A stretch of 64,000 bases of DNA from a virus. Positions 16,001-60,334 of this stretch are shown piece after piece (position 1 is the stretch's first letter; the number at the start of each line of letters is the position of its first letter). The notes below the pieces were generated by a model. That model made no database searches. It worked only from the letters and a program-made list of their open reading frames with translations, and was not told the DNA's origin. The stretch lies in IMG/VR virus record IMGVR_UViG_3300045988_080644, one strand, 5' to 3'. Made by a program: the position numbers and the translations under genes.

Positions 16001-16251
16001 GAGACAAGGTTAAAGAAGAAGCTTGGGAAAAAGTGATTTCTATAGTAGAATCAATAACGTCTTCATCTACCCCTACTATATCATTAGAAAATGAAGATAC
16101 TGTTATTTAGAATGGTAAAAGATATACAATAATTGATAAAGAAAACTTAATTGGAGAAGATGAGGTTACTAAAGAATAGGTAACTTTAACTACAGATAAT
16201 TTAATTAAAGAGGAAACTTAGTGTATTCCTGTTAAATTTAATATGATTTAA
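7006..16251 (+). CDS. Giant multidomain protein (3081 aa with TAG=Gln) with hydrophobic Gly-rich segments and an embedded SF1 (RecD/Pif1-like) helicase/ATPase domain
   Basis: ATG 7006 (TAATG overlap). Frame 1 is open for 9246 nt to TAA 16249-16251. Walker A GIAGSGKSKAV (~11392-11421), Walker B VIFIDEISH, motif III GDFDQ (Q=TAG 11827-11829), YTGITRASQGV (~12355-12390). Track ORFs 8635.., 10336.., 13129.., 15511.. are all in this frame. Confidence 0.85.
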
Positions 16252-16252
16252 A

Positions 16253-19200: not shown

Positions 19201-22200
19201 TGAAAATGTAGAAATTCGTCTTATTGACGGTACCAACTCTTCTGCTAAGACCTATTTAAAAGACAATTATAAAGATTGGATTCATAATGGTAAAATGGTA
19301 TTTGCTAAGGTTAACGGTAAGGATATATTAACTAAATAGGACTTAATTAATTTAGGACTAGATATTAATGATCCACATTCTTGGAATATAGAATTACATC
19401 CTATGCTTAGTAAGTATAATGCGTTAGACTATTTCTTTACTTCTCAATATATGTATGCAGGAGTAGGATGTCATACTAATCATCCTTCTAAGGCAGATTA
19501 TAATGTCCCTATTATTTATAAGCATCCAAAATTAGGTTTATCTACATTCTTATAGAATAATCCTCAAGCTGCAAACTATCTCATGGATTTTGATGACTTC
19601 TTTAATGAAAAAAGAGATGCATTTATTGAAGCCCAAACTCATGTAGAAAAATCTATCCCATTCTCTGATGATGAAGGCTATGTTTACTATGACACTAATC
19701 CAGAATGGACAAAAGCTAAAGAAAATTATTTAATATAGAATTAGAATAATCCAGAATTTTAGGATTTTGTAAAGAAAGCATGGAATGAAGCTAAACTTAT
19801 AGCTAAGGAATAGAATAAAATTTTATTAAATTCTAGTTCTATTGTATTAAAGATGTTCCCACAGGACTTTAGTAAAGTATTAACCATGTCCTAGGAAGAA
19901 GCAGTAGCACGTGGTATGGATCCAGATTGGAAAAATACAATTGATACTGCTTTAAATGGTTTAATAGTACCTAAAATAGAATTCAAATCAGGTGAATATT
20001 TTGACAAAGCATTTAGCTCTTATTTAACTAAAGAAATGGATAAACTTCTTCAAAATGAAACTGAAGATGAAGCATCTCGTTTTGCAGCATAGCATAAGAG
20101 AAATGTATCTTATACCGCAGCCATGCATGAGTTTCAATTAAATCAAATAGATGGCGTGCCTTCTGTCTATAATATGGCAATTATGTCAGATTTGAAGTCT
20201 GATGTGTATACAGTATAGGCAGATGTGGATAAAGCTACTAATTTTGATGGTGCTACCTTTGTAAATCCATTTATAGTTATTTGGGAGAACAACTCCCTTA
20301 ATGGAGATAAAGCAGGTATAAATAAAAAGCAATTTGTACACTTTTATGATAGAGCCACTGGTACAGGAGGTATTATTAAAACTGCAGGATTTGGTTTAAC
20401 TAATGACAAAATAAGACAGTTTGACTTCTACCGTAATATGATGTATAATATGACCGGTAAGAAATGGAAAAATGCTGATGGTTCTCAATATATTATGCGT
20501 GATGGGGGTATTCTTAAAGACTTTGAAGACAACGACATTGACTATGGTGATTTCTACTATAGAAAAGGGGCTAAATTTTATAAGAGACGTATTTAGTCCT
20601 ATGATGGAAATAACACTTATTCTATATTAGAGCAAGAAGTTGATGAAAATGGAGAAGCAAAGGGTAATGAGAATACTATTCAAGTATAGGTAAATTCTAA
20701 CTATGATGTGTGGCAAATGTTTGGAGGTATGAATTCTGTAGACTTCTTAGATGGAACTCTTCAAGGTTCTGAAAAGTCTATAGAAATGACTGCACATGCT
20801 GCCAATATTTATGGAACTAAAAAAGAGGGTGTTATCAGAGCGCAGACAGCAGATGACATTATCTAGCCTATGAAGCATTCTGATATACATTATATGCCTA
20901 CTATAGGTGCTGTTAAACACGGTGCTGCAAACATAAATCCAGTCTCTTCTTTCTTTAGTAGAAATGGTCTAAGTTTTATGTAGGTAGAAGTGAGATAGGC
21001 TGGTATTTAGCTTGATAAGGAACATCAAGCTGATAATGAAGACTTGTCTCTTATGACTTAGGTTATTTCAGCTGCTTGTTCTATGGGATACACTAAGGGA
21101 GAGGCTACTAATCTATATAATGCTTTATATAGTCTATCTAAATAGGCTACTAAGGCATTTAGAGACGAAATGGGAGACCTATTAAATGGATTCTCTGATA
21201 GCTTTAATGCTGCGGTAACAGAAACTATTATGAAGTCTTTGATTAATGCTTCAGCTACAGACGGTGATATGCTATAGTTAGTAGCAAAGAATATTATAAA
21301 GAAAATAAATGCTGAAAAATAGTTTTCTATCAATAAAACTAACTACGCTGACATTGATAAAGAAATTCCTTATAGTGATGCTGCTGTTTCTGCTAAGGTA
21401 GTTAGTTCTTTAACCGCTGCATTAACTAAAGCTGGAATTAAAACTAAAATGCCTGGTCTTTTAGCAGTATTAAATCCAGCTGAAGGTATTATAAAAATGT
21501 ATAAAGTGCCAGCCAAAGACAAAGATGGCAATATTCTATTAAATGAAGATGGTTCTACTGTATATAAATATGTAACTATGGATGCCATAGAAAAAGAGTA
21601 TGATACAGAGAATGCTTTTGAAATAATGGAATAGTTACAAGCAGAAACAGGACCACTTAGTTATAATACTGATGAAACTGGATTAATAACTAGTATGCCT
21701 GATGTCAAAATAGGACGTAAATACTTAGTTACTTTCTCAGATGGGGTCAACAAATCTACTAAGGTTGTAAATGTGACATTACCTCATAGAGTGGAGTCTG
21801 ATACTAGTACTGTATTTTATAATAATGTTCCATATCAAGAATAGACTATGGGATATAGAAAACTTATAGACTATTTAAATGGAATAGTTAATGAGGAAAC
21901 TGGAGTTACTAACCAAATTACAGAAGTTAAGGAGTTTTTAATAGGAGGTCAGGACTTAGATAGTTATGATGTAAAATTTTAGGATTCTTTAGGTAATAGA
22001 TGGCAAATGTCTGATTTAGATATTGTACAAGATTATTTTGAAGCAAGAGAATCTAAAGACCCCAGAAGAAAAGTATTAGAAATATTATCTAAGTATGATA
22101 AAGACTAGGAATTAAAAGCTGCTATAATTAAGGAATTTAATGAGTCTAATAATTCAAATAAAGTTAAGATTGTCAATGATTTAAATGATAATTTTAATGG

Positions 22201-25200
22201 AATTTTCTTAACTGAAACTCCTATGTATAAAGAGTTCTTTTAGAAGTATGCATTAAAATTCTTAAATAGAGAAATGCAACGACAGTTGACCGCTTTAAAT
22301 CCTGAAAATACAGAGCCTTTAAATGTATTAATTAATAATAAAGTAGTTACTGTATAGCCTTCTACTATTGATATAACTAGTTATGGAACAGTAATACCTA
22401 AGACAGCTGCTTCCTCTTTTGGTCTTAATTAGTATGACTAGGTTAGTGATATTGTTAACAATCCTGATTTCTTCTTAGATAGATTAGCTAAGAGACTTAA
22501 TACTAAAGTTTAGGATTATTATAAGGATGGATAGTTAGTATATAATTACCACTTGGAGCTAAAAAGAAATGATGGTAATCATGTTTATATAAGAAGAGGG
22601 ATTGATAATTCTGACTTCGCCAATGAAATTTAGTGGTTTAGGTATGTTGATTCTGATGGACATGTATTTAGAGTAAACAGTGATGGAAATATTATGCATC
22701 CAATGTATAGTGAGAATGATAAAATATATACTGACTATGATGGAAATGAAATAATAGTTACTGAAGCTAAAGATACTTGGAAAGATTCTAAAGGCAATGA
22801 AGTAAAGAATCCTGATATAAAGAAAATTCGAGGCATCACCATTGATTAGAAGACTGGAGAAGAAATCCATTTAGATTCTCCATTTACCTTTTACTTAGAT
22901 AACCTTAATTATAACTTTGTAAATTTAAATGCAAATTGCTCAGAAGCTGAACTATTAAATTTATTAGATGCAGCCAGAAGTAGCAAATCTAAAAAGGCTA
23001 ATAATTTTGTAAAGAGACTTGCTAAAATAGGTAATTATGATAAATAGGTGGACTATTTAGATAAACTTACTAAGTATGAAGATTTAATAAAAGGAGATAC
23101 TAAAAATCCAGCATATTTAGCCTTACAAAAGGAATCTAGATAGATATGGACTTCTTTTATGAAATATCTTGAAAATGTAGCAGCACGTATCCCTGCTTAG
23201 TCTTAGTAGTCTTTCATGGCTCAAAGAGTAGCTATGTTTGAGAATACAGATACAAATAATGCTTATGTAAGTAAATTCTAGTTCTTCTTACAGGGAAGTG
23301 ACTTGGATATTGATGCGGTATCTATACAAACATTTGATATAAATAGCAACGGTATTTATGAAACTTATTCTCCGTATGCTAATCTGGATTCACCAGCACT
23401 TCTTAAAGTTTCTGAAAAATACTTACCGTTCCCAACTGGAGATAGGATAAAAGTTGAAGAAATTCATGATCCAACTATAACTACTATGCACTAGTTAATA
23501 GCTAAATAGCATTATGATGGTAAAAGATTATTTGGATTAGCTAATAAACTTAATTAGTAGGATGCTTTATTCTTAATAAACTATACTAGAAATAAGGATG
23601 TAATCGTAGAGGTAAATACTAACAGTGAATAGAATATAAAAGATTTAGCTGATATTCTTGAGTCTATTAATTCAGAGGATTGGTATTCTTACGAAGATGA
23701 TATATCTAATACTAGAGCCTTAACAACTTTATTATTTCCAGATAATGAAATGGTATTGGATGTAGATTTATATGATAAAATAGAAAATGGTATAATTGAG
23801 GCTATAGATAAACATAATACTTATTTAAAGAATAATTCTAAAGCTAAGAACGATAGAATATTAAAGAATTTTGCTGTAACTTCACTATTAAATATTATTA
23901 AAAATCCAGTTAATCTTAGAGAGGCTTAGTCTTCTGTAGATGTTATGACATCAACTGCTAAGAACTTAACTAAGGCTTCTCCTAAAAATGCAGTACAAAA
24001 AACCTTTACTCCAGGTAATGTATTTAATAAAATCTAGAGTATCAATGAGAATATGGTTGGTAAAGATGGTATTGCTATCTGTGCGACAGGTCTTAAATCT
24101 TTCTTTGCATTAACTCATATGTATAATACAGTATTAAATGATGAAAACACTAGTAATTAGGAAAAAGAAGCTTTAATGTGTAAGGTAACAATTGGAGGTA
24201 AAACATATAGAGGACTCGCTAACGTAAATGCTAATTAGGAGTTAATAGAAAGTTTAGCAGATGCCGAGAATGGTAATTTTACTACTTTACAGAATTACTT
24301 ATTAGCTCAAGAATGGGAATCTGATGCTGCTAATGAAGCTTCTGCTTTTCTGTCTCTTTCAACTGATAATGCTAAGGAGTTAGCTTTAGCTAAATTAAAT
24401 GCAGGTACTCAGACTTTGGGTATGTATTTATATGGGTTATCTCTTGGAGTTCCAGTAGACACTTTGTTTAAAATAATGACTTCTCCATTTGCTTTTAGAT
24501 TAGTAGAATTAGCAAAAGGTGATACATTTAGTGGTAATAGTGGTTGTGGAACTATAATTGGTACTCTAGACTACTTACATAAAGACCCACTAGAATAGCT
24601 TTCTAGATTTAATACATTTGATTTATCTACATATAACGAAGGTAAACCAAAAGATTAGAAAATATTAGGTCCAGCTGATTTTGCTTGGTAGTTATTGTAG
24701 AATAGTATAGCAGATGATTATAATGAAAAATTACCACTTCTTAGATAGTTAGCTTATAAAGGTAATGCTATTTAGTTAATTGAAGATTTAAGGTCTAAAG
24801 TTAATTAGATTAGTAGTGTTATCTAGACAAAAGATGAATTTAATCTCTATTCAACCTTATATAATCAAGCACTAGACTTTATGGAATAGTATATTGCTGA
24901 TGTCTAGCTAGAGTTAGATAGTGGAAGTTACGATACTGTATACGGAAAATCCATAATAGCTACAGACTTAGAAACTCTTGCTCTTGGTGCTGATGAATAT
25001 AAAGAAATAGGTAAAATTCTTAGACTTAATCAAGAAGTAAAGACTAATGCTTTAGATTTACAAAACTAGGTAGCTAATATTGAAGAAGTTATAACTAGAA
25101 GACTCAGACAATTAGCTAGAGTTGAAAATAGGGGAAGCTACTATAGTCATGGTGCCACAAAAGATGAGTTAAAAAATCCTGATAAATATAAGATTGATTT

Positions 25201-26635
25201 AGAAAAGTTTTTATATGATGAAGTATACTAGTAGGAAAAAATAGCGTAGTATGATAGAATTAAACAATCTTATAATGTTTTACGTGTTCTTACTACAGAT
25301 CCTTAGTATAAAGGTTATATGGAAACCTTATATATGGCTCATCAAGGTCTGTTAAATAAGTAGTTAAAGTATAGATTTACAGTAGGTAAAATTGCAGATT
25401 TTATTTAGAAAAATAAAGTTACTGGTAATTTATAGTAGTAGGTACTTAAAAATGGTAACAATTATGTTGACTATAAACTAAGACAAAATTGGATGCGAGA
25501 TAGTAAAATACAGATTACTATTCCTGGCAGTACCGATAAAATGAAAACTTATGCGTTTATAGGAACCCCAAATAGTTATAGTTAGTTATACTTTGATAAA
25601 ACTATACAACTGGGCACTGATATGGGAGATGCTAATTTTAAATTATGGATGGAGCAAACTCTTATTCCTAGACTTAAAGCGGACCCAACATTAAAAGATA
25701 ATATATTTATATAGCATTTAAGTCCTATAGTTAACTCAAGAACTAATTTGGGTATGACTGCGGTTTATTATGGATTAAATGGAATAAACATGTTGCCTTA
25801 GTCTGACGCTGAAAGAGAAATGTTTGATATACATAAAGACGCTTTTAATAAATTAGCAACCTATGACTTGATTAGGGACGCTAAAGGTCATACTTTTGCC
25901 ATAAAAGACTTATTTTATCTATATTCTTTAATATGTAATAACGGTAAATTTGGTCCTACTTCTCTACATAAAATATTTGAGGATTATCTAGATTCAGGTC
26001 TAGCCTAGAGTTATAAACACTTTATAGCAGAAAAAGATAGAGACTTAGATTTCTACCAGGATTTAGTAAAGACATGTACAGATGAATGGCTTGCACCTAT
26101 GAGTTCTCCTTATGTTGGAGGTTCTAAAGTACTCAAATATAAGGATTAGAACAATGAATAGATTCTACTTTATAAAAAGAAGGAAAAGAAGTCAAAAGGT
26201 GGATATGACTATGATGTCGAGTAGGATATGGATGACATCTTTATGAATGATATGGGATTTGATCCAGAAGGTGGAAAAGACCCTATGGCAGAAATCAACA
26301 ACTATGTTAAATAGGAATCTAGTGCCCTAGCTAAAAGAGACTATAGTTTCTTCTCAAATCCTGAAGTTAAATATAATACATCAGGTTTTCAAGTATTATC
26401 AACTAAATCAGAACTAATTAATTAGCATCCTATAACCTACGAAGTTAGAGATGGTAAACCTGTATTAGTAAATATAGGGGGTGATGGGGAGATTGCAAAA
26501 AAGTTTATGAAATTAATGAAAGATCGTAAGGGAATATTACCTACTAAGTAGATTCTTGGAACAGATGGATTTACTGCAGTAATTAATGAAGAATAGATTG
26601 AATCAGAATTAAATAGTATAATAAATTGTGGATAA
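16253..26635 (+). CDS. Giant protein (3460 aa with TAG=Gln) containing a two-barrel RNA polymerase-type DxDxD catalytic motif; crAss-like virion-packaged RNAP candidate
   Basis: ATG 16253, two nt after the upstream TAA. Frame 2 is open for 10383 nt to TAA 26633-26635. ARIPAQSQQSF...GSDLDIDAVS has DLDID at 23300-23314. An in-frame triple TAG lies at 25433-25441. Track ORFs 17936.., 19103.., 20225.., 21449.., 23303.., 24416.., 25820.. share the frame. Confidence 0.8.
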
Positions 26636-42442: not shown

Positions 42443-42647
42443 CAATGTTTGGACTATTTCATTATCCCATAGGGATATTGGGCGCTTATAGGATATTATT
42501 GCTTCAATACTCAATCCTTAGTCTCTGAACCTTCTTACTACTTTTACTTGATTCATAAGCTTGGCTGCAGATTATTCTAATATTAGACCTTCCTGCAATT
42601 CACCCAATTTACAGTAGATAATTACTTATCTACGCCGCATACATTTT
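42443..42647 (-). ncRNA. Putative ORF-less group I-like self-splicing intron in polA (~205 nt)
   Basis: The 5' exon ends in U (42648) and the intron ends in G (42443). Exon CCGU can pair with intron GCGG (42638-42635) across a 9-nt loop, a P1-like helix with a U-G wobble. There is a GUAA tetraloop hairpin (GATAA-GTAA-TTATC) and further stems (TGCAG/CTGCA, ATCCC/GGGAT). Confidence 0.6.
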
Positions 42648-44579
42648 ACGGTAATTAATAGATTGTTTCTCAGAAGCTGCTTTACGCTGCATATAGTGTC
42701 TTACTTCCTGTACAATTTCATCTTGTGGATTACGTTTTCTTACATTCTGATAATACTCCCAAAATCCAGGTTCCTGCATCTTATTATGAGTCTCTTTTAA
42801 CTCTTCAGCATCATAAATATGTGCCCTATGTCCAGTGAGAGGATTAAGTAATATATAACCATCTCTCATAACAGCTGCTCTACAATAATCTTGGTATCTT
42901 TTTATTCCTGGAAAACCCTCCATAAAATTATCATAAATTTCTTTTGCTTCTTCTACAGGAATACCATCATTCTTAGATATAGTATTATAGTCTCCTCCAT
43001 AATTAATAGCAAACTCGATGGATTTGGCTTTTTGTCTCCAATTATGATAGAGTTTCTTTATATCCTCAATCTTAGTGTCTCTTGGGATTATATTAGGATA
43101 ACTCATGTAAGCTACCAGAGAATGGACATCACCACAACCATGTTCAAATAGGTCTATCATCTTCTCATCTTTAGAAACAGATGCAATAATACGAGATTCC
43201 TGACTTTGATAATCAGCAGATAACCAAGCATTACCCTCTTCGGATGTAAAACATGCTCTAGTTTCTGGATCGTGAGGTAGATTTTGCATGTTCAGTTTCC
43301 AAACACCTCCGCCAGAACTAACTCTTGCAGTATCTGTACCTATAGAATGAAAATCTGCATGTATTCTACCTGTTTTAGGATTAATTGCATTTAACCAGTT
43401 TTGTCCATAAGTAGATACGACTTTAGCAGCTTCTTGATATTCCAAAAATATAGGAATAATTGGAAAATCATTCTTTTGAGGTTTTAAAACATTTGCTTCA
43501 ATAGACTTCTTTTTCTGTTTAGTCTTTTTATCAAATGTTTCTACATTAATTCCAAGTAACTCAAATAGAGGTATTACTTGTTTTTGACTACTCCAATTTA
43601 TTACACATTTAGGTTCAGTATCAAATCCTGTAAATAAGTCACCTTGAGTATCAATTCGTGTAAACTGATTCTTAATTACTTTCTTATAAGCATCAACCTT
43701 ACCATCAGGGGTTTGTAAGTCTTCCTGAGGGAACCTTTTATATCCATCTTTAATTAGTCTCTTTACCTCAGCAGGATAATCTGCAGAATACTTTGGATAT
43801 TTAAGTTCAGGATATTGAATATCATAGCCATTATGAGGATTTTCTTTATCCCAAGCTACTACCCAAGCATTTAATTCTGAAATAGCCTTATCAAGTTTAG
43901 CTTGATCTTTAGTCATTTTAGCTTTCCACTTCGTAATATCGAGATGAACTCCACAATATTTAAAGTAAGCAAGGGATTTAACAAATTCACATTCCAGCTC
44001 TACTGCGAGTTTCATGCCTTGTTTTTCTATTTCAATATCTTGTTTTTCTTTTATATCCTCTATATACGTAACATCTCCTGCAGCATAAATAACGACCTCA
44101 GTAGTTAAACCATCATTAACAATTTTACCTCGAACAGTTTTATCAATGTTAATATTTAAGTAATTCCATGCAGCTGCTTTCAAGCTCTTTTCACGCATTT
44201 GAGCTGGATACCCTAGATATAAGAGCTGTTCTACTATCATACCATCCCAAATATGCTTAGGATAGATACCCTGAACATATAAAAAGGTTAAATCAAACAT
44301 TAAATTCCATCCCAGAAACAATCTGTCTGATTCTAGGTAGTTTTTAACTATTTGCTTTTCTCTTGGAGTTAGAGTAGTCCAATCAATAACTACTTGATTA
44401 TCTTTATTACCTAACTGTATAGTCAATAAAGCTTTGGTATGACAGTCGAGACCCTTAGTTTCTGAATCTAACTGACATAGTTTGAGCGGCAACAGAACAG
44501 ACATTGCCTGCTCCATTGTCGCTTCTATATATTTATCCGTTTGAAATAAACTTTTATTATGACTAACTAAATAAATCAT
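42648..44579 (-). CDS. polA: Family A DNA polymerase with 3'-5' exonuclease domain, exon 1 (644 codons)
   Basis: Exo motifs LDSETKGLD, NLMFDLTFL and YAAGDV. Pol motif A SADYQSQESRI and motif B RQKAKSIEFAINYGG. The track ORF runs on to a TAG at 42630 inside the intron. Confidence 0.9.
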
Positions 44580-44839
44580 TGATAATTACAAATAGTTAAA
44601 TTATTTAGAACTATATCTTCATTATCAATATTTAATTTGTCTTTTATAGCTTCTTCTACAGCTTCTTTTAATTCTTCTTCATTAATAACTAAATGCCTAC
44701 CTTCTTTATACTGAGGAATGGTAATATCTACAAAAGTACCTAATTCAACATTTACTTCTACAGTAATATTTCTATTATTAGGTTCATTCCAAGGTGCACT
44801 TGGGTCATTATAAGCTCCTGCTGGATAATTTTCTGTCAT
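44576..44839 (-). CDS. Hypothetical protein (87 aa)
   Basis: Intact ORF with a 4-nt overlap on both sides. Confidence 0.55.
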   Translation of the reverse strand: MTENYPAGAYNDPSAPWNEPNNRNITVEVNVELGTFVDITIPQYKEGRHLVINEEELKEAVEEAIKDKLNIDNEDIVLNNLTICNYQ

Positions 44840-45159
44840 GCTAAATAGTCATTTAACCACTCTATTCCATATTCATCTATTACCTTTTCATCTATCTTTA
44901 TAGCTTCAAGTTCTATATCCTCAAGCTGCTGTTCATACCAATCTTCAAATTGATCCTCATCATCCTCGTCTATATCTGGACTATCTAAATAGCTAAATGA
45001 GTTAACACACTCATCTCTTAATTCATTTGCATAACTCAGTTCTAATGTAGGATCTTCTTCACTTTCAATTACTTCATTTATTGAAGCATCACAAGCAACT
45101 GGATACTTAGCAATAACTAGCCACCAATTCCCATTAAGAAATTCTTCCTTAGATATCAT
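44836..45159 (-). CDS. Hypothetical highly acidic protein (107 aa)
   Basis: Intact ORF with an Asp/Glu-rich run (DIDEDDEDQFEDWYEQQLEDIELE). Confidence 0.55.
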   Translation of the reverse strand: MISKEEFLNGNWWLVIAKYPVACDASINEVIESEEDPTLELSYANELRDECVNSFSYLDSPDIDEDDEDQFEDWYEQQLEDIELEAIKIDEKVIDEYGIEWLNDYLA

Positions 45160-46004
45160 TATATTAATTTAAATAACTGTAAATTGCATCTTTTTCTTAT
45201 TTTATCTAAAGCTTTTTCTTTTATTTGTCTAACTCTTTCAACACCAATGCCAAACATATCTCCTACTTCTTGCTTGGACATAGGATTCATTCCTATGCCA
45301 AATAACATAATAATAATATCATGTTCTCTGACAGGAAGTATATCTAGACATTTGCATAGTTCCTTATTAATAAAGCTTTTATTAACTTGTTCGTCAAGAG
45401 AAGGCTCTCCGTCCGGTATCACATCACATACTTGACTATTTTCCTCATCCCCACCAATAAAGTCATCGACACTAACTAATCTGTTAGAAAATTGTGCCAA
45501 ATAGTCTATTTGCTTTTCAGGGATATTAGTTAAAGTATGTAATTCATTTGTAGTTGGATTTCTACCATTCTTTTTAATAAACTCATTAGTAGCTCTTAAT
45601 ATTTGAATTACTTTTAAGTGTTGAGTTACTGGCAATCTAATCTCACGACCATACCAATATATAGTAGTATAAATACATTGTTTTATCCACCAAGCAGAAT
45701 AATTAAGAAATTTAACACCCCTAGTTGGATCAAATTTATTTACAGATTTACATAAACCTTCCAATCCTGAGGATATTAAATCCATAAGGGGAATACCTCT
45801 ATTTTGAAACTGCTTAGCTATAGTTACTACAAATCTTAAATTAGAAGTAATTACTTTTTCTCTAGCCTTTTCATCTCCATTTTGAGCTTCAACAATTAGC
45901 TTGTTTATTTCTTCATTATCTAATATTTTATATTTAGATATATCTCGAAAATAACTCTGAAGTAGAGAGTCAGACTTGTCAGAAAAAATAATTCTTTTAT
46001 TCAT
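45159..46004 (-). CDS. Sigma-70 family RNA polymerase sigma factor
   Basis: Region 2-like RFVVTIAKQFQNRGIPLMDLISSGLEGLCKSVNKFDPTRGVKFLNYSAWWIKQ. Region 4 HTH MSKQEVGDMFGIGVERVRQIKEKALDKIRK. Confidence 0.8.
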   Translation of the reverse strand: MNKRIIFSDKSDSLLQSYFRDISKYKILDNEEINKLIVEAQNGDEKAREKVITSNLRFVVTIAKQFQNRGIPLMDLISSGLEGLCKSVNKFDPTRGVKFLNYSAWWIKQCIYTTIYWYGREIRLPVTQHLKVIQILRATNEFIKKNGRNPTTNELHTLTNIPEKQIDYLAQFSNRLVSVDDFIGGDEENSQVCDVIPDGEPSLDEQVNKSFINKELCKCLDILPVREHDIIIMLFGIGMNPMSKQEVGDMFGIGVERVRQIKEKALDKIRKRCNLQLFKLI

Positions 46005-46260
46005 TAATTGTGGACTTAGCTAGTGCTTTAGCTTCATCTAATTGTTTTTCTTCCTGGGTTGGTTGATTAAGACCTATACGTATACTAAGAATAGTGAGAT
46101 AAGCTTCCATTGCCTTGAGTTGAGCTATCAATAAGTCTTTATTAAGATTATCTATAGAAGTCTTATCTATTTTATTAATTAAGAAATCTCTAAGCTTTGT
46201 AGTTTTAGTTTCCAATTCTTTGTACTCTGTAAGTAGTCTGTCAAACACGCTCTTTTCCAT
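45997..46260 (-). CDS. Hypothetical helical protein (87 aa) immediately upstream of the sigma factor
   Basis: Intact ORF overlapping the sigma gene start by 8 nt. Confidence 0.5.
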   Translation of the reverse strand: MEKSVFDRLLTEYKELETKTTKLRDFLINKIDKTSIDNLNKDLLIAQLKAMEAYLTILSIRIGLNQPTQEEKQLDEAKALAKSTINE

Positions 46261-47018: not shown

Positions 47019-47517
47019 ATTCTATTAAATATTCAAAGAATCCATCATAAGATAAGTTATCTTTTATTGTAATAACTTCCTTTCTATTATCTACAGATTT
47101 ACACCATTGGTGCCTATTAACTACCTGATAAAGAGTTTTATTATTGTATACCATATCTAACATAGCTTCCCAAGTAGCTATATTTCTAGTACTAGAATCT
47201 TCATCGTCTTTAGTTATATAGTTAAAAATAAATATCAATTGCCACTTTTTAAACAAAGTAATAGAAATATAAGGGTCCCATTCATGTTCGATTCTCTCAT
47301 ATTTCCATTTCCAACCAATAGCACTAAATCTAATATCTAATATCTTATTATAATATCTATCTGTTATAGGTAATCCAAAGAACCATATTTTCTTGCCACA
47401 ATAAATATGACAGTTAGGTCTATGGAACCAATTTCTACACTTCCACCAAACATAGAATGGATTTTTATACTCATTCCAATGCTTGATGAAAGTGCGTACT
47501 TTATTAATTAAGTTCAT
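46996..47517 (-). CDS. Hypothetical Trp-rich protein (173 aa)
   Basis: Intact ORF in a packed operon. Confidence 0.55.
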   Translation of the reverse strand: MNLINKVRTFIKHWNEYKNPFYVWWKCRNWFHRPNCHIYCGKKIWFFGLPITDRYYNKILDIRFSAIGWKWKYERIEHEWDPYISITLFKKWQLIFIFNYITKDDEDSSTRNIATWEAMLDMVYNNKTLYQVVNRHQWCKSVDNRKEVITIKDNLSYDGFFEYLIEYENMCNV

Positions 47518-48877
47518 CTTCTTTATCCATCTCTGGGTCAGATTGAGCTTTATCTACAAATTTGAAACATTTTAATTTCCAAGCGTGACCAATCATATCC
47601 TCCTTTTTAATAACTATACCTTCATGAGGTACCTTATTAACGCAAGAAGGTGATTTACATTCCATATAGAAACGCTTATCATTAGATAGTTTATCCAAAA
47701 ACTTTTTTGCCCAGTCCCTATCCTTACTATCTAATTCAGGATATAAATCCTTAGCATATCCATAATAATATTCAGTTACAGGAGTTAGCCCTACTGATTT
47801 ACAATACTGTTGCACTTCTCTTGCACTAAATTCATGTACTTCACCATCTACATTAGTTAGTGTGATTCTATAAGGTCTTACCTTAAAATGTTTTTCTGGC
47901 TTATATATCAAATTGTCTATAATAGCGTTAGGCTGTTCACAACCATAATCATATCCCTTTTGAATATATGTGCCAGTTGGATTGTATCCCACAATCTCTG
48001 CATAAATAGTCATACCCTTTTGAAGATATGGACGCAGATAATCATCGGCATACTTCCAAGTATCACAACCATAAAATCCTGGTGTTACATTAGGATTATA
48101 ATACTGGTTCTTAATTACATTCTTTGAAGCATATAGATGGTCATAAATATCGAAGTTATTACCTGTGAGCCATTTAGCTAATTTCTCTTTCCAAGTAAGT
48201 TCTTTATGACACATTACATATGCTGAAATATGGGAAGTTCCATGTATTTTCTCAGTAATACTAATTAAATCTTCAGGTTGAATTACATTAGGACATTTCT
48301 TGATAATAACTGTTTCGTAATGATATCTAAATTGAGAAGGGATGACTTTATCGAGTTCCTTCTTAACTTTACGTGTCTTTTTTGAGCCTCCTCCAGGAGT
48401 TCCCTGTGATCCTTTAACGATGAATTTCTTATTAACCCAAAATGTCTTGCCTTCATGTTCTACTGTATCAAATTCAGTTCCGTCAATTAATTCAATATCT
48501 CTATTAGTTATGGATATAAGCCAGTTAGTAAATTCTACAGCAGGTACAATAAATCCTTCTGATAATTCACCTCTTAATTTAACGGCTTTAACCTTACCAT
48601 TATCTTCAAATAGACCAGTTTTATGTGGATCATTGTTTTTCTCTGACTTTCTAAATAAGTTATTATAGGATAAAAAATCAGGATTAATACAACAAGCTGT
48701 TGGGAAATATATATATAACCCTGGTTCAGCATCTATTGAAGTAATGATATTAAATCCATCAATAGTACAACACTTGAGTTTAGTTACTTCTGGATTTGAA
48801 TGCTTTCTAAAAACTTTAATATTAACTACTTTAGCTAAGTAATTAATGTTACAATTTTTACTCTTGATTAGTTTCAT
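47504..48877 (-). CDS. Nucleotidyltransferase-superfamily ligase, RNA ligase-like
   Basis: Motif I TEKIHGTS (Kx[DH]G), IYAEIVGY, motif IV HEGIVIKK and motif V WKLKCFKF. It is distinct from the canonical DNA ligase at 50677..51900. Confidence 0.65.
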   Translation of the reverse strand: MKLIKSKNCNINYLAKVVNIKVFRKHSNPEVTKLKCCTIDGFNIITSIDAEPGLYIYFPTACCINPDFLSYNNLFRKSEKNNDPHKTGLFEDNGKVKAVKLRGELSEGFIVPAVEFTNWLISITNRDIELIDGTEFDTVEHEGKTFWVNKKFIVKGSQGTPGGGSKKTRKVKKELDKVIPSQFRYHYETVIIKKCPNVIQPEDLISITEKIHGTSHISAYVMCHKELTWKEKLAKWLTGNNFDIYDHLYASKNVIKNQYYNPNVTPGFYGCDTWKYADDYLRPYLQKGMTIYAEIVGYNPTGTYIQKGYDYGCEQPNAIIDNLIYKPEKHFKVRPYRITLTNVDGEVHEFSAREVQQYCKSVGLTPVTEYYYGYAKDLYPELDSKDRDWAKKFLDKLSNDKRFYMECKSPSCVNKVPHEGIVIKKEDMIGHAWKLKCFKFVDKAQSDPEMDKEDELN

Positions 48878-49184
48878 TATTAATTAATTCTTGAGAGAAC
48901 TTAATATTATCTAATGAAATAATCTCAGATACCCAAGGACACTTATCTAAGATTGCTAATCTAACCGCTTCTTTAACTTTAGATATTACTTGTTCTTTAG
49001 TTAAATTGGTATATTTACTTTTATCTACTTTGATACACCAAGGTAGGGCTGATTCAAACCCTCCTTGGTGTATTTTTATAGTAGCATCGAAATTAACAGC
49101 ATATTCCTTTAGCTTAGAAACATACTTAACTTTTGGTTTCTTTTCGATAACTACTGGTGGAACAACTATTTTCTTTTTAGGCAT
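48858..49184 (-). CDS. Hypothetical protein (108 aa)
   Basis: Intact ORF. Confidence 0.55.
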   Translation of the reverse strand: MPKKKIVVPPVVIEKKPKVKYVSKLKEYAVNFDATIKIHQGGFESALPWCIKVDKSKYTNLTKEQVISKVKEAVRLAILDKCPWVSEIISLDNIKFSQELINNETNQE

Positions 49185-54813: not shown

Positions 54814-55128
54814 TTAATATGGTTCGAATTGTTGTTTTACTAACTTACCTTCTTTATATTCAAATGTTCGTTCGCCTCTTACTGAATCATCAGGCTCATA
54901 TCCTTCATAATAGTATTTACCGTCTTTGAAAAATATTTCATCTTCTACGATGGTACAATTATAAGGAAGCCAATCTGCGTCTAGATTTTTTTCAAAAGGT
55001 ATGTAAACATCATATATTGATACAGCTTCTTTAGTAGTATAATAAATATCATCATACTCTTCAAAAGCTTTCAAATTATAAGATATTTCAGTAATAGCCT
55101 CACCATCAAATTTTCCGTATAACTTCAT
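54814..55128 (-). CDS. Hypothetical protein (104 aa)
   Basis: Intact ORF. Confidence 0.5.
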   Translation of the reverse strand: MKLYGKFDGEAITEISYNLKAFEEYDDIYYTTKEAVSIYDVYIPFEKNLDADWLPYNCTIVEDEIFFKDGKYYYEGYEPDDSVRGERTFEYKEGKLVKQQFEPY

Positions 55129-55557
55129 TACAGTAAAGATTTAAATATTTTGACAATAGTACCTTTCTGAGCAGTAGGAAATTTACGTTGAATATGTGTA
55201 ATAACCATTTTAGTATCCTTAATAGTCAGAGTCATTATTTTCATTAACTCGGAAATAAATTCTCTAATTTCTTGTTCTGAAGGTTCTACAGGCATTATTC
55301 CTCGAATATAACCAATTTCTTTAACCTCCTTAAGTGCCAAATCTTTACGACCCGCCTTCTCATAAATAGCCATAGCTTTTTCGCGCTCTTTAAAAAACAT
55401 CTAGTTCAGAAACTGGTTTCTCGGAATGCTGATTATTAATCAACGCAGCTTTAATTAATTTAGCTGTTTCTAACATAAGGGTATTAGAAGTTTTTCTAGC
55501 ACCTTCAATCAAGATATCAACTGTCTGTTCTATTGTTATTTTATTATCGTTCATCAT
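55128..55557 (-). CDS. GatB/YqeY-domain protein, split by a 1-nt frame change at a T6 run (N-part 55390..55557, C-part 55128..55400)
   Basis: The C-part KEREKAMAIYEKAGRKDLALKEVKEIGYIRGIMPVEPSEQEIREFI is collinear with bacterial YqeY ([39 protein letters not shown]). The N-part LETAKLIKAALIN...PVSELDV matches the YqeY N-terminus. The two parts sum to ~142 aa, the usual YqeY size. Confidence 0.7.
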
Positions 55558-55717
55558 TAATTGTAATATTAGGGTTAATCATATAATCTATTTCATCTAA
55601 ATTAAAGTCCATTGACTCTAACTAGTCATCTATAGCAGCATTATTCATACTTGGATAGGGAAGTTTATAAATCCATACAGACCCATCATAATAATCTAGC
55701 ACAATTATTTCTTCCAT
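55544..55717 (-). CDS. Possible small acidic protein (57 aa) containing one in-frame TAG
   Basis: ATG 55717, in-frame TAG at 55622-55624 (codon 32), TAA at 55544-55546. Its 3' end overlaps the YqeY start (ATGATG). Under the standard code it stops after 31 aa. Confidence 0.35.
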
Positions 55718-55941: not shown

Positions 55942-55984
55942 AGATAGAAAAAGGAGACCTAGTTACCTAAGTCTCCTTAACCGT

Positions 55985-56802: not shown

Positions 56803-57865
56803 CCTTTATACCCTCTCTTTCGAGATATTTAGTTTATTAATAACATAATCTTTTATTTCAGCTTTTCGTTCATCTGAAATTTTATCAATATAAGATTTAT
56901 ATACTGAATCATTAGCTTCATTTCTATACGATTTTAACATATATATTTCACAAAGATACCTTTGATATACTGCTTCTTCTTTTAATGTATATTCTTTCAT
57001 ATAATATCTTTGTTTCATATAAGTAAAATCAGTCTTCCATTTGTTACTTTTTTTACAAAAGGAAACCCCTCGTATTCCGGAAGTATTAGTAGATTTCTTT
57101 TGCAGATTTAACATATTTTCTTGTACAGTTACTTCTCTAAGATTAGATTTCCTATTGTCACGAGTGTCACCACTTATATGATCCACTTGTTTATCAGTAG
57201 GCAATACCAGTCTATGAAAGTATATACGCTCTTTTTTCTGATTTCCTGTAAATAAATATGGTTTATCATTTTTATAAACAGTTCTCCATTTATGACCCTT
57301 TAATTTCGAAATGTCATTTACATCTAGAATAAATGTTTCCATAACATTTCCATAAGAATCATAAGTATCTATTTCTGCAAAATTATCTTTTAATCTAATT
57401 TCATTATCATCAAATACACCTCTTGGATTAGAGTCTTTAAATTCTCCATAATTTTTAAACTGCCTTGCATGTTTAAGACAGAGTGTTTTTCCAGCTAAGT
57501 TATTAAAACTTACTTGTTTAAATTTTGATGATACACCACATACTTCACAAAAGCGTTCTTCAGTTATTTTTCTCATATTGTCAAAATTGTGTTAATAATA
57601 AGGGAGTGGACTATACCATCAACCGATTAGGTTGCGCATTGGTAGTCTCTGAGACCCATAAATTTTTATCTATGTCAAGTATATACACGACTTGTATATA
57701 CCACAATAGTATTAACATAAATTAACAATTTATATGTCTGCTGATTGCCCAATCCTAAGACTTGTTCATTTTTGAATTAAATTCAAATATACTTAGGCTC
57801 TAAGGGGTTTCCAGCATATTCTGCGTTTTCATCATAACATTACTGTTATAAGGGGCGTTTATTTC
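56803..57865 (-). mobile_element. Group I-like intron (~1063 nt) carrying an HNH-AP2 homing endonuclease, inserted at the nrdD glycyl-radical site
   Basis: The 5' exon ends in U (57866) and the intron ends in G (56803). Exon GGGU can pair with intron GCCC (57856-57853) across a 9-nt loop. A 289-nt non-coding, stem-rich segment (57577-57865) precedes the endonuclease ORF. Confidence 0.65.
56806..57576 (-). CDS. HNH-family homing endonuclease with AP2 DNA-binding domain
   Basis: HNH motif HRLVLPTDKQVDHISGDTRDNRKSNLREVTVQENMLN. AP2-like SGIRGVSFCKKSNKWKTDFTYMKQRYYMKEY. It lies wholly inside the nrdD intervening sequence. Confidence 0.85.
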   Translation of the reverse strand: MRKITEERFCEVCGVSSKFKQVSFNNLAGKTLCLKHARQFKNYGEFKDSNPRGVFDDNEIRLKDNFAEIDTYDSYGNVMETFILDVNDISKLKGHKWRTVYKNDKPYLFTGNQKKERIYFHRLVLPTDKQVDHISGDTRDNRKSNLREVTVQENMLNLQKKSTNTSGIRGVSFCKKSNKWKTDFTYMKQRYYMKEYTLKEEAVYQRYLCEIYMLKSYRNEANDSVYKSYIDKISDERKAEIKDYVINKLNISKERV

Positions 57866-59975
57866 ACCCAATAATTCTAGTATAATATTTGATGTGTCTA
57901 CAATGACAAATAGGACACTCATCAATAGGGGCATTTACTACATGTCCGCATTCTCTACATTGAGACATTGGGATATTAAATGTGAAATAACTAGTACCCT
58001 CATCCTTAGCTACATCTAACAGATGTAAATACTGTTGTTTACTTAAATGAGCATCAAGATTTGCATGAAGTGCCTGACCTCCATCACAATACTGAGCTAC
58101 TCCTCTACCATGAAGCTTAAATTTATCAAGAATAGAGGTCTCATCCCATGGATTATAGAAATAACAATTATACAGATTCTGATTTTCAGGTACTGCATAA
58201 CCATCCTTCTTATCCCAATTATAGAGTTTTACACCTAATCCTTCCCCAGGAATAGCTTCACTATTAAACAAGAATGGTCTTTTACTATCGTGGATAGAGT
58301 TTTTCTTATTTTCTTCTTTAACAGTACCAAATACTAATTTAAGAAAATCTTTATATTCCTTATTATTAGATACCGATAGTCCCAAGAATTGTGCAGCTTC
58401 ACAATAACCTATCAATCCAATGGTAGAATACAATTTACGCATATAAATATATCCTGCATTACAATCAGAAAACATTTTAGCGTCTTCCATTTCATAAAGC
58501 ATTGTCTTATATGCAATATGATACTTATATACTCTTTCAAGAATATTAATAAGATAATTTTTTAAGTCTGAAAAACTCTCAGAAAACCACTCAAAAGGAA
58601 AGGCACACTTACCATCAACAATATGATCCTCCCAATTTTTCCATGTATGTATATAATCCTGAACAATTCTATTAATATTAAGAGTAATTACATTACAAGA
58701 ACCAGTCATAACTCCAGTCATACCTGTAGTAGAACTAAAGGTATTATCAGACATTTTATTTAGGACTCTACAACATGATGCCAAAGATGTAGGATTATCA
58801 CTAGTATAGCAGAAGAAACTTCCACCTTTAGCCCACTCTTCGGCACATAACTCTTTGTATTCATGATCAAGATACTCTTTACCATTATGTACAAGAGCCA
58901 TAGTAGTTACTGGAAATGTGAGAGGTTTAATTAATCTGATTTCTCTTAAAAGTTGCATAAAGATTCTCTGCAACTTATCTATAGCATTCCATTCAGGTTG
59001 TGTTCCATCAGGATAATAAAATTCTCCAAAGAGTGATTTAAAATATACTTTATCATAAAAAGATACATTAGAGAAAGGTGAATTGTAGCTTCTATTGCCT
59101 GCAGGTTGATTAACTCCATAAATAAACTGCTTCATACCCTTTCGGATATAATGTCCAACAGTATACTGATGCAGAAAGTGGGAATTAGTTACAACTTCAT
59201 CCACCTTATCATACCATACAGGTCCAAACTCTTGAATTACATAATAATTAAGAGCTATAAAATAATCTCCAAGAGCAACCGCTCCCTTACACTGAGAACT
59301 AAACAAAAACACAGCATTAGTTACCTGACCACTAAAAGACTGAATATCATTTGGAGCACTAGGAGTAACTCCATCAATATTACCTACACCCTTAAGCATT
59401 AATGGGTACAATGTAACTGCTTTACAATAAGGTTTAAGTACCGGAGTACTTGCCTCATCATGAGTATAAATAATATGATTTTCCAAATCCTTAATATACT
59501 GTCTTCCAAGTTCTTGACCTGGATACAATTTATTAAGTTTATCTTTCATTCGTTGTCTTTGGATAATTCTATTAGTTACTTTATATACTTCACCCTCAAG
59601 ATTAGCTACATTCTTAGAAGCAACATTAGCATTAGCATCTGTTTCTGAAGAAGTAGATGCATTTACACCAGAATCTTTATAAGTGTCCATGTAATTAAGT
59701 CTACTTCTAATAAATCTAGCTTTCTTGTGTTCTTCTCTATAAATGGAATAAGCTCTGGCTACATCAAAATATTCGTAATTATATAAAGTCTCTTCTACTT
59801 CATCTTGAATTTCTTCTACAGTAATATTATCCCAGAATCTCATTTCTGAAACCATATCCCGAATAACATTTTCAACAGAAGTATAACCACAAGCTTTAAA
59901 TGCCTTAGTTAAAGCATTAAATATTTTATCTGCATTAAACTCTTCCTTTGTTCCGTCTCTTTTTATAATGACCAT
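57866..59975 (-). CDS. nrdD: Anaerobic ribonucleoside-triphosphate reductase NrdD, exon 1 (703 codons plus 1 nt)
   Basis: N-terminal ATP-cone (VIIKRDGTKEEFNADKI), C-terminal Zn ribbon CRECG...CPICHC and glycyl-radical motif TRIIG. The ORF stops directly after the radical Gly, where about 25-30 more residues are expected. Confidence 0.9.
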
Positions 59976-60334
59976 ATATTCTTTTTATTCATTAATTTTT
60001 TAGTATCTGAAGATAATTTATCTGGATTATAGTTATCTAAATCTATTGTGAAATTAATGAGTTTAAAATTATCAGCAACTTTATCCTTTATAAGCCATTT
60101 AACTAAATCTGTCAGGGATTCGTCAGCATAATCACCTCCTTGAGCATTTTTAACTATCATAGTATTATCCATACTATTAAAGAATGCCCAAGGGACTGCT
60201 TCACCACATGTATAAGCTATGTAACCGACAGCATCATTACCTTTATAAGATATAACTATACCTCCAGTATTATCATCAATAGCACCCAAATCAATAGCAT
60301 CTGAGGTTTCACTTGGCAATATAATATCTTTCAT
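59963..60334 (-). CDS. Hypothetical protein (123 aa)
   Basis: Intact ORF. Confidence 0.55.
   Translation of the reverse strand: MKDIILPSETSDAIDLGAIDDNTGGIVISYKGNDAVGYIAYTCGEAVPWAFFNSMDNTMIVKNAQGGDYADESLTDLVKWLIKDKVADNFKLINFTIDLDNYNPDKLSSDTKKLMNKKNIWSL

What the first reader, a model, noticed from the sequence alone, without database searches (positions are those of the whole stretch)
55128..55557. Phage-encoded GatB/YqeY-domain protein broken by a +1 shift at UUU-UAA within a T6 run
The two adjacent ORFs (55 aa and 90 aa) together are collinear with bacterial YqeY. The N-part ends …SELDVF-TAA. The C-part frame continues KEREKAMAIYEKAGRKDLA… if one T of the T6 run (55392-55397) is skipped. 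Three readings are possible. (a) A homopolymer sequencing or assembly error. (b) A genuine pseudogene or phase-variable site. (c) A programmed +1 shift of tRNA-Phe from UUU to UUU at a stop codon, formally like the prfB-type frameshift, which senses termination efficiency. Established knowledge: the YqeY/GatB tail domain binds tRNA-Gln and boosts GlnRS in some bacteria. Inference: in a phage that reassigns TAG to Gln, such a protein could help charge a CUA-anticodon suppressor tRNA. Its expression could also be coupled to termination status.
Basis: partly seen in the sequence, partly recalled or inferred. Interest (0 to 1): 0.65.

Follow-up and report, generated by a model that had tools for sequence, protein, structure and literature searches.

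The report
Deletion-broken YqeY gene in recoded gut phage
A small accessory gene of a human-gut phage (a YqeY-like, tRNA-binding-type protein) is split in two here by an 11-base deletion that is private to this genome, not by a programmed ribosomal frameshift; it is an ordinary loss-of-function allele, though related phages carry a notable number of other, independent breaks in the same gene.

Summary
On the minus strand, a 55-aa ORF (55557..55390) and a 90-aa ORF (55400..55128) overlap at ATGTTTTTTAA and together are collinear with YqeY (Pfam PF09424).

The break is not a homopolymer miscount, and it is not a conserved slippery site. Relatives about 99% identical read GATGTTTT[ACATAAGATGG]TTAAAGAG. 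The window lacks those 11 bases, and the deletion itself creates the T6-TAA motif. More than 50 related loci and hundreds of database proteins have an uninterrupted 146-aa gene without that motif. The junction is absent from two large DNA collections, and the predicted fused protein exists nowhere.

A +1 shift would give a protein lacking LHKM from the family's most conserved helix. The exact 55-aa fragment is recorded on 4 contigs from four repositories, so an assembly artefact is unlikely. No raw reads could be checked.

Best reading: a genuine loss-of-function allele of a dispensable accessory gene.

Near-identical phages from other samples carry at least nine other independent frameshift or large-deletion alleles, plus about ten in-frame deletion alleles. 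Flanking DNA shows almost no indels.

The phage does recode TAG heavily in its late genes. A role for YqeY in charging a suppressor tRNA remains untested, and broken alleles in phages that depend on TAG decoding argue against an essential role.

The parts
55390..55557 (-). ORF-N, 55 aa: N-terminal fragment of the YqeY-like gene (helices 1-2 and the first turn of helix 3), ending ...SELDVF-TAA
   Evidence: 98% identical to residues 1-55 of intact P0001; helix map from the AlphaFold model of P0001
55128..55400 (-). ORF-C, 90 aa: C-terminal fragment of the YqeY-like gene (rest of helix 3, helix 4, and the C-terminal three-helix GatB-tail-like domain). Its ATG at 55400 lies inside ORF-N. Other pipelines call an 81-aa version that starts at MAIYEK.
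   Evidence: (PF09424, E = 2.5e-9)
55392..55397 (-). T6 run followed by AA (TTTTTTAA). This is the scar of an 11-nt deletion whose junction lies between 55394 and 55393. Intact relatives read GATGTTTT-ACATAAGATGG-TTAAAGAG.
   Evidence: junction absent from IMG/VR and JGI metagenome contigs
55544..55717 (-). Upstream 57-aa gene of unknown function that overlaps the YqeY start by 14 nt. In the window it carries TAG (55622-55624) where most relatives have TGG (Trp32).
54814..55128 (-). Downstream 104-aa gene of unknown function; its ATG overlaps the YqeY stop (TAATG). It is intact, and the identical protein is very widespread in public assemblies.
   Evidence: (714 contigs)

Best explanation
The two ORFs are the halves of a phage YqeY-like accessory gene that has been inactivated in this genome by a real 11-base deletion (ACATAAGATGG, codons 55-59). 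The deletion shifts the frame and, by accident, leaves the sequence GUU UUU UAA A. Ribosomes terminate after 55 residues. At most they make trace amounts of a 4-residue-shorter fusion, or re-initiate at the overlapping AUG to make a 90-aa C-terminal piece.

The gene is functional in most relatives: it is intact, 146 aa, with dN/dS 0.2-0.5. It is nevertheless dispensable, because natural populations of this phage carry many independent deletion and frameshift alleles, of which this is one.

Shown: the deletion, its uniqueness, the intact state of relatives, family membership, and the multiplicity of other broken alleles. Inferred: that the deletion is present in the reads and not assembler-made, that the allele is a null, and that the gene is non-essential for TAG decoding.
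For: (1) The DNA alignments to MT835492 (87% identity) and to 12 loci of about 99% identity all show the same 11-nt gap in the window only.

(2) Intact 146-aa genes are found in 23 of 24 IMG/VR loci. In the neighbour-anchored sample, 8 of the 10 shown places are intact and 8 further similar places were not shown. The main protein clusters have 317 and 160 members.

(3) No hit is identical to the hypothetical fused protein among 5.8 billion clusters; the best is 95%. The T5 or T6 junction pattern is absent from IMG/VR and JGI contigs.

(4) The exact 55-aa fragment ending in DVF is recorded from NCBI, JGI/IMG, Logan and ENA on 4 contigs. Contig lengths of 188,305 and 188,557 point to at least two assemblies.

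(5) Over 3.2-5.3 kb the window differs from eight near-identical loci by no indel other than those in YqeY. The four other homopolymer runs of 6 or more in that stretch have the same length.

(6) The missing residues LHKM lie in the motif VLxKMVKxR, the best-conserved stretch against solved YqeY proteins. The Pfam score falls from 47.0 bits (intact P0001) to 36.4 bits (fused).

(7) Other independent lesions occur in other samples: a 4-nt deletion (3 samples), a 1-nt deletion plus substitution (2 samples), a 1-nt deletion of A (at least 2), a 1-nt deletion of T (1), a 235-nt deletion (1), and a frameshift in L024. Protein fragments P0131/P0133, P0143, P0130/P0018 and P0128 indicate more. About ten in-frame deletion alleles also exist.

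(8) dN/dS of intact copies is 0.21-0.54.
Against: The contigs that carry the identical 55-aa fragment could not be retrieved. It is therefore not shown that they come from different samples or that read support is clean.

The site GUU UUU UAA A is formally shift-prone, so some full-length (minus 4 aa) product cannot be excluded.

The overlapping AUG could allow the C-terminal piece to be made, and two-piece function was not tested.
Confidence: 0.8

Rival explanations
1. Assembly or sequencing artefact: the real genome has the intact 146-aa gene and the 11-nt gap was introduced by the assembler or by a minority variant.
For: The allele is not found in IMG/VR or JGI contigs by pattern search. 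Reads could not be inspected. The phage is abundant and polymorphic in many samples, so mixed populations are likely.
Against: An 11-nt deletion in unique sequence is not a typical short-read or homopolymer error. The specific 55-aa product is on record from four repositories on 4 contigs, including Logan's own assemblies. There are no other indels against eight near-identical loci. Comparable small deletions in the same gene recur in independent samples and pipelines.
Confidence: 0.09
2. Functional +1 ribosomal frameshift (programmed or usefully leaky). tRNA-Phe slips from UUU to UUU at the UAA stop and yields a 142-aa YqeY whose level reports termination efficiency.
For: The sequence U UUU UAA A allows perfect re-pairing in the +1 frame next to a stop codon. 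The phage manipulates stop-codon decoding.
Against: The site is created by a private deletion and is not conserved in any of more than 50 related loci or hundreds of proteins. There is no Shine-Dalgarno-like element upstream (GAACUAGAUG). The product would lack LHKM of the most conserved helix. TAA is the phage's normal stop and is not the recoded codon.
Confidence: 0.04
3. Split but functional gene. The 55-aa and 90-aa pieces are both made, the second by termination-reinitiation at the overlapping AUG, and they reassemble or act separately. The C-terminal GatB-tail-like domain would stay intact.
For: The ATGTTTTTTAA overlap is a classical coupling arrangement. ORF-C keeps the whole C-terminal three-helix domain and still passes the Pfam threshold on its own at 37.8 bits. 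In other broken alleles the same 89-aa C-terminal ORF is retained.
Against: The cut lies inside helix 3 of the N-terminal bundle and removes conserved residues. Other alleles destroy the gene in different ways, including a 235-nt deletion of its start and frameshifts in the C-terminal half, which suggests plain loss. The overlap arose by accident of the deletion. Retention of the 89-aa ORF is expected simply because the frameshifts are recent.
Confidence: 0.07

Closest known systems
Bacterial YqeY proteins (Pfam PF09424; structures 1NG6 Bacillus subtilis, 8XJG Vibrio parahaemolyticus, 8XJE Campylobacter jejuni)
   Same: The size is the same (146 aa in intact relatives). The two-domain, seven-helix architecture is the same. 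The conserved motif VLxKMVKxRxxSxxxYxxAGRxDLA is present. The Pfam score is above threshold, and the six best Foldseek PDB hits are all YqeY.
   Different: The gene is encoded by a phage, in a nucleotide-metabolism/early block and not next to rpsU. Identity to the solved proteins is only 20-26%. In this window the gene is broken by an 11-nt deletion.
YqeY-like C-terminal domain of Deinococcus radiodurans GlnRS and the C-terminal tail of GatB
   Same: These are homologous helical tRNA-binding modules linked to Gln-tRNA-Gln formation (PMC1865053). PHROG 1460, which the phage protein matches, is labelled 'tRNA amidotransferase'.
   Different: The Deinococcus domain works only in cis, fused to GlnRS. 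The phage protein is free-standing, and no phage GlnRS or GatCAB gene was seen in its neighbourhood.
prfB (RF2) programmed +1 frameshift
   Same: There is a slippery codon immediately followed by an in-frame stop, which allows P-site tRNA re-pairing in the +1 frame.
   Different: There is no upstream Shine-Dalgarno-like stimulator and no conservation. The motif is a by-product of a private deletion, and the downstream frame encodes a protein that is 4 residues short.
Accessory ('moron'-type or auxiliary) phage genes that are polymorphic for loss in natural populations
   Same: The gene is intact and under moderate purifying selection in most genomes. Sporadic, independent frameshift and deletion alleles occur at the tips.
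   Different: The number of distinct small-deletion alleles is high compared with a neighbouring enzyme gene. About 22 indel or truncated protein clusters at 90% identity or more are seen for YqeY, against 2 for the NrdG-like gene, which has more member sequences.

Membership tests
YqeY (Pfam PF09424) | Profile HMM score above the curated gathering threshold (27 bits), collinear over most of the profile | tested here: met
   The fused window protein scores 36.4 bits over profile 13-131 of 143. ORF-C alone scores 37.8 bits. The intact relative P0001 scores 47.0 bits. PDB sequence hits are 8xjg, 8xje and 1ng6.
YqeY (Pfam PF09424) | Stand-alone protein of about 145-150 aa with an N-terminal four-helix and a C-terminal three-helix (GatB-tail-like) all-alpha fold | tested here: met
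   This was tested on the intact relative P0001. The AlphaFold model has pLDDT 87.6 and seven helices. The six best Foldseek PDB hits are all YqeY, with probability 1.00 and 141-148 aligned columns. TM-scores are only 0.36-0.46, probably because of domain orientation.
YqeY (Pfam PF09424) | Uninterrupted reading frame that includes the conserved VLxKMVKxR helix | tested here: not met
   In the window, 11 nt covering LHKM(V) are deleted and the frame is broken. By descent the window copy is a member of the family, but it is a disrupted one.
YqeY (Pfam PF09424) | Binding of tRNA-Gln, or enhancement of Gln-tRNA formation | not testable with these tools
   Only literature is available: the effect is cis-only in Deinococcus GlnRS, and free YqeY is uncharacterised.
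prfB-type programmed +1 frameshift | Slippery P-site codon that can re-pair in +1, followed directly by an in-frame stop | tested here: met
   GUU UUU UAA A on the coding strand.
prfB-type programmed +1 frameshift | Shine-Dalgarno-like stimulator a few nucleotides upstream of the shift site | tested here: not met
   The upstream sequence CAGUUUCUGAACUAGAUG has no GGAGG- or GGGGG-like element.
prfB-type programmed +1 frameshift | Shift site and two-frame organisation conserved among homologues | tested here: not met
   All intact relatives have a single ORF and read GTTTTACATAAGATGGTTAAAG. The T6-TAA motif occurs in none of more than 50 loci or in two contig collections.
Phase-variable (contingency) locus | Pre-existing long homopolymer or tandem repeat tract whose length varies among relatives | tested here: not met
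   Relatives have T4 at this place. The other broken alleles lie at different positions in very short repeats (AATTAATT, TTT, AA).
TAG-reassigned (code 15-like) phage | Many in-frame TAG codons in long, otherwise open late genes, with TAA and TGA kept as stops | tested here: met
   Treating TAG as sense doubles ORF content from 11,284 to 22,987 aa and gives ORFs of 3,089 and 3,462 aa. There are 370 in-frame TAGs in seven + strand ORFs.
TAG-reassigned (code 15-like) phage | Phage-encoded suppressor tRNA with CUA anticodon; TAG decoded as Gln | tested here: inconclusive
   There is no tRNA gene in the 64-kb window. Five tRNAs, none a suppressor, are found in the 121-kb partial relative. CAG falls from 1.20% to 0.41% of codons in late genes while TAG reaches 3.43%, which is consistent with Gln but is not proof. 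About two thirds of the roughly 188-kb genome was not available.

The most novel reading that the evidence does not exclude
The phage YqeY-like protein is a trans-acting helper of Gln-tRNA formation for the phage's TAG-to-Gln decoding. Alternatively, it is a translation-linked factor that some hosts sense. In either case the striking number of independent deletion and frameshift alleles, including this 11-nt deletion, would reflect host-dependent selection to lose or alter it, not mere neutral decay. A minor variant of this reading is that the accidental UUU-UAA scar still gives a low level of the fused protein by +1 slippage.
Probability: 0.1. Interest if true: 0.6.

Novelty: new member of a known kind. 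Interest (0 to 1): 0.25.

Why it matters
As a frameshift signal it does not matter: it is a mutational scar, not a recoding device.

The context has modest value in two ways. First, it documents a free-standing YqeY/GatB-tail-like gene that is conserved across a very prevalent family of TAG-recoded human-gut phages of about 180-190 kb. YqeY remains functionally uncharacterised even in bacteria.

Second, natural knock-out alleles are common in phages that still depend on hundreds of in-frame TAG codons. That argues the protein is not essential for stop-codon reassignment. These ready-made natural mutants could be compared if a host is ever found.

Tried and rejected
- **Retrieving contigs with the same allele:** exact look-ups of the 90-aa, 55-aa and 81-aa products returned no gene position, although the cluster table lists them.
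- **Junction pattern searches:** the T6 form, and a form allowing T5 or T6, gave nothing in IMG/VR and JGI metagenome contigs.
- **Hypothesis of an in-frame 12-nt deletion plus one extra T:** rejected as unsupported. No T5 allele or fused protein exists in any collection, and a single 11-nt event is more parsimonious.
- **Microhomology at the deletion ends:** none was found by inspection, unlike the TL and MKI in-frame deletions, which lie between ACT and TAATGA direct repeats.
- **CRISPR-escape explanation for the many alleles:** considered but not pursued. The lesions are spread over the whole gene and do not cluster in one protospacer-sized window. No spacer search was run.
- **Testing TAG = Gln through MT835492:** the late block has no nucleotide match in that partial record. 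Only the indirect codon-usage argument remains.
- **Literature:** no paper in the library links YqeY to recoded phages. The search by PDB codes returned only irrelevant hits.
- **Apparent truncation of the 57-aa upstream gene and of the metallophosphatase gene in relatives' gene calls:** these were gene-calling gaps, not lesions.

Full report
**What is in the sequence.** The feature lies on the minus strand. ORF-N (55557..55390) encodes 55 aa ending ...SELDVF and stops at TAA. ORF-C (55400..55128) encodes 90 aa beginning MFFKEREKAMAIYEK. The two overlap in the string ATGTTTTTTAA, and the T6 of the coding strand is the A6 at 55392-55397 of the + strand. Skipping one T joins them into 142 aa. 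That protein matches Pfam YqeY (PF09424) at E = 6.8e-9 and 36.4 bits against a threshold of 27, collinear over profile positions 13-131 of 143. ORF-C alone covers positions 54-132.

**What the lesion really is.** The only GenBank phage record with nucleotide similarity is MT835492.1 (human faeces, 121.6 kb, 87% identity here). It has one uninterrupted 146-aa gene, and the pairwise alignment shows a single 11-column gap in the window exactly at the T run.
- Relatives of about 99% identity were fetched from Logan and ENA assemblies. They read GAT GTT TTA CAT AAG ATG GTT AAA GAG, whereas the window reads GAT GTT TT- ----------- -TT AAA GAG.
- The break is therefore an 11-nt deletion (ACATAAGATGG), and the T6-TAA motif is a product of that deletion. 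The ancestral sequence has only T4.
- A one-base homopolymer miscount does not explain it.
- The lost residues LHKM belong to the stretch VLxKMVKxR. This is the best-aligned, most conserved segment between the phage family and solved YqeY proteins.
- Even a perfect +1 shift would give a protein lacking about one helical turn. The Pfam score drops from 47.0 bits (intact P0001) to 36.4 bits.

**Is the site conserved?** It is not.
- Of 24 IMG/VR loci encoding relatives (55-97% identity to the MT835492 protein), 23 have an intact single ORF and one (L024) has a different frameshift.
- A sample anchored on the identical 104-aa downstream neighbour is unbiased with respect to YqeY. Of its 10 shown places, 8 are intact and 2 are broken in other ways; 8 further similar places were not shown.
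- The protein search returned 809 homologues. The nearest (95% identity to the fused query, because of the 4 missing residues) represents a cluster of 317 sequences of 146 aa. Nothing is identical to the fused product.
- Exact searches for the junction, allowing T5 or T6, found nothing in IMG/VR or the JGI metagenome contigs.
- No Shine-Dalgarno-like element precedes the site.
- Phase variation also fails, because there is no pre-existing tract.

**Artefact or real?** Reads could not be inspected, so this rests on indirect evidence.
- The exact 55-aa fragment has a terminal DVF that is diagnostic for this junction. It is recorded from NCBI, JGI/IMG, Logan and ENA on four contigs. The C-terminal piece is recorded with contig lengths of 188,305 and 188,557, which implies at least two assemblies.
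- Across 3.2-5.3 kb the window differs from eight near-identical loci by no indel except those in YqeY. The other homopolymer runs of 6 or more in that stretch agree in length.
- I put a genuine deletion at about 0.8 and an artefact at about 0.1.

**What the gene is.**
- The AlphaFold model of the intact relative (pLDDT 87.6) has seven helices: four in the N-terminal part and three in the C-terminal part.
- The six best Foldseek PDB hits are all YqeY proteins (8XJE, 8XJG, 1NG6), with probability 1.00 and full-length alignments. TM-scores are only 0.36-0.46, as expected if the two domains are hinged.
- PHROGs places it in phrog_1460, labelled 'tRNA amidotransferase'.
- The deletion falls at the start of helix 3.
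- Intact copies evolve with dN/dS of 0.21-0.54, so the gene is functional in most genomes.
- It sits in a standard-code, minus-strand early block between NrdD/thioredoxin and a metallophosphatase, NrdG-like, dUTPase/dCTP-deaminase-like and ligase genes. It is preceded by an overlapping 57-aa gene of unknown function.
- No second copy exists in the window.
- YqeY-like genes are rare in GenBank phages. Apart from MT835492, the only convincing case found is the Xanthomonas jumbo phage Xoo-sp13.

**Recurrent breakage.** This is the most interesting by-product of the work. Looking up the fragments showed that the same gene is broken differently in near-identical phages from unrelated samples.
- A 4-nt deletion (AATT) occurs in SRR21752058, ERR11457681 and SRR36242888.
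- A 1-nt deletion with a substitution that creates TAG occurs in ERR13962861 and ERR14028851.
- A 1-nt deletion of A occurs in SRR23559915 and SRR23559928.
- A 1-nt deletion of T occurs in SRR30862816.
- A 235-nt deletion removing the gene start occurs in ERZ25298984.
- There is a frameshift in L024, and further truncated products exist (P0131/P0133, P0143, P0130/P0018, P0128).
- About ten different in-frame deletions of 1-32 codons also occur in sequences otherwise 97-99% identical. One of them (the TL deletion) is present in at least four samples, including wastewater.
- The controls argue that this is specific to YqeY. The flanks of these loci carry no indels. The metallophosphatase neighbour is intact in 20 of 20 loci. 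The NrdG-like gene (158 aa) has only six protein clusters at 90% identity or more, four of them full length, despite about 1,430 member sequences. YqeY has about 27 such clusters, of which about 22 are indel or truncated variants.
- Part of the sample was selected for being broken, so frequencies must come from the unbiased samples. These give roughly 4-10% broken.
- The pattern shows at least that the gene is dispensable and tolerant of indels. Whether loss is positively selected is not shown.

**The functional speculation.**
- The phage does reassign TAG. Reading TAG as sense doubles the coding content and yields seven long + strand ORFs with 370 in-frame TAGs.
- In those genes CAG is depleted (0.41% against 1.20%) while TAG makes up 3.43% of codons. 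This is consistent with Gln.
- No tRNA gene lies in the window, and no suppressor lies in the 121-kb partial relative.
- The Deinococcus precedent is weaker than stated. The YqeY domain enhances the affinity of GlnRS for tRNA-Gln only in cis (PMC1865053), and a 2026 paper still calls YqeY not well characterised (PMC13374519).
- Phages whose structural genes need hundreds of TAG read-throughs carry null alleles of this gene, so an essential role in suppressor charging is unlikely. An accessory, host-dependent role is not excluded.

**Verdict.** This is a real, ordinary loss-of-function allele (an 11-nt deletion) of a known type of gene. It is not a programmed frameshift and not a homopolymer error. 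The interest lies only in the family context and the unusual density of independent lesions.

Noticed in passing
window 1-32524 (+ strand): The late/structural block consists of seven long ORFs that are open only if TAG is sense, with 10-107 in-frame TAGs each. They include giants of 3,089 aa (6982-16251) and 3,462 aa (16247-26635). CAG is depleted there. The strand switch and the GC-skew sign change fall near 32.5 kb.
   Followed up: partly
window 55622-55624 (-), inside the 57-aa gene 55544-55717; also L027 and L018: Trp32 (TGG) of the small gene that overlaps the YqeY start is TAG in the window, in the close relative L027 and, independently, in the distant relative L018. L026 has a 7-nt deletion in the same gene. 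This is either a second recurrently hit accessory gene or a TAG read as sense in an otherwise TAG-free early block.
   Followed up: partly
L026-L047 and protein hits P0002-P0133 (YqeY homologues): There are many independent in-frame deletions (TL, MKI, TAK, ETAK, PVSE, KPVS, ALKE, VK, and 11, 23 and 32 aa) and frameshifts in sequences otherwise 97-99% identical. Several lie between short direct repeats (ACT...ACT, TAATGA...TAATGA, AATTAATT), as expected from replication slippage.
   Followed up: partly
window 56806-57576 (-) and L027, L030, L036 (HNH_3 genes near nrdD): An HNH endonuclease gene sits just downstream of nrdD (57864-59984) in the window. In some relatives a different 312-aa HNH gene is inserted at about window position 58247, leaving a 581-aa NrdD piece (seen in L027) and a separate 68-aa C-terminal piece (seen in L030). 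Other relatives lack both. This looks like mobile homing-endonuclease traffic around nrdD.
   Followed up: no
window 55951-55978 (-): A terminator-like hairpin (12 pairs, followed by a T run) lies between the 76-aa and 73-aa genes. It suggests that the 73-aa / 57-aa / YqeY / 104-aa genes form one transcription unit.
   Followed up: no
window 45159-46127 (-), 42609-44585 (-), 47504-48883 (-): The phage encodes its own sigma-70-family factor (phrog_351, E = 3e-59), a family-A DNA polymerase and an RNA ligase. The family, with contigs up to about 190 kb, is extremely prevalent: the identical 104-aa protein is indexed in 1,315 blocks of public assemblies.
   Followed up: partly
L048 12150-12230 (MT835492.1): A tRNA-like sequence between the called tRNA-Asp and tRNA-Met genes was not called by ARAGORN. 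The tRNA cluster of this family may hold more genes, possibly unusual ones, than were detected.
   Followed up: no
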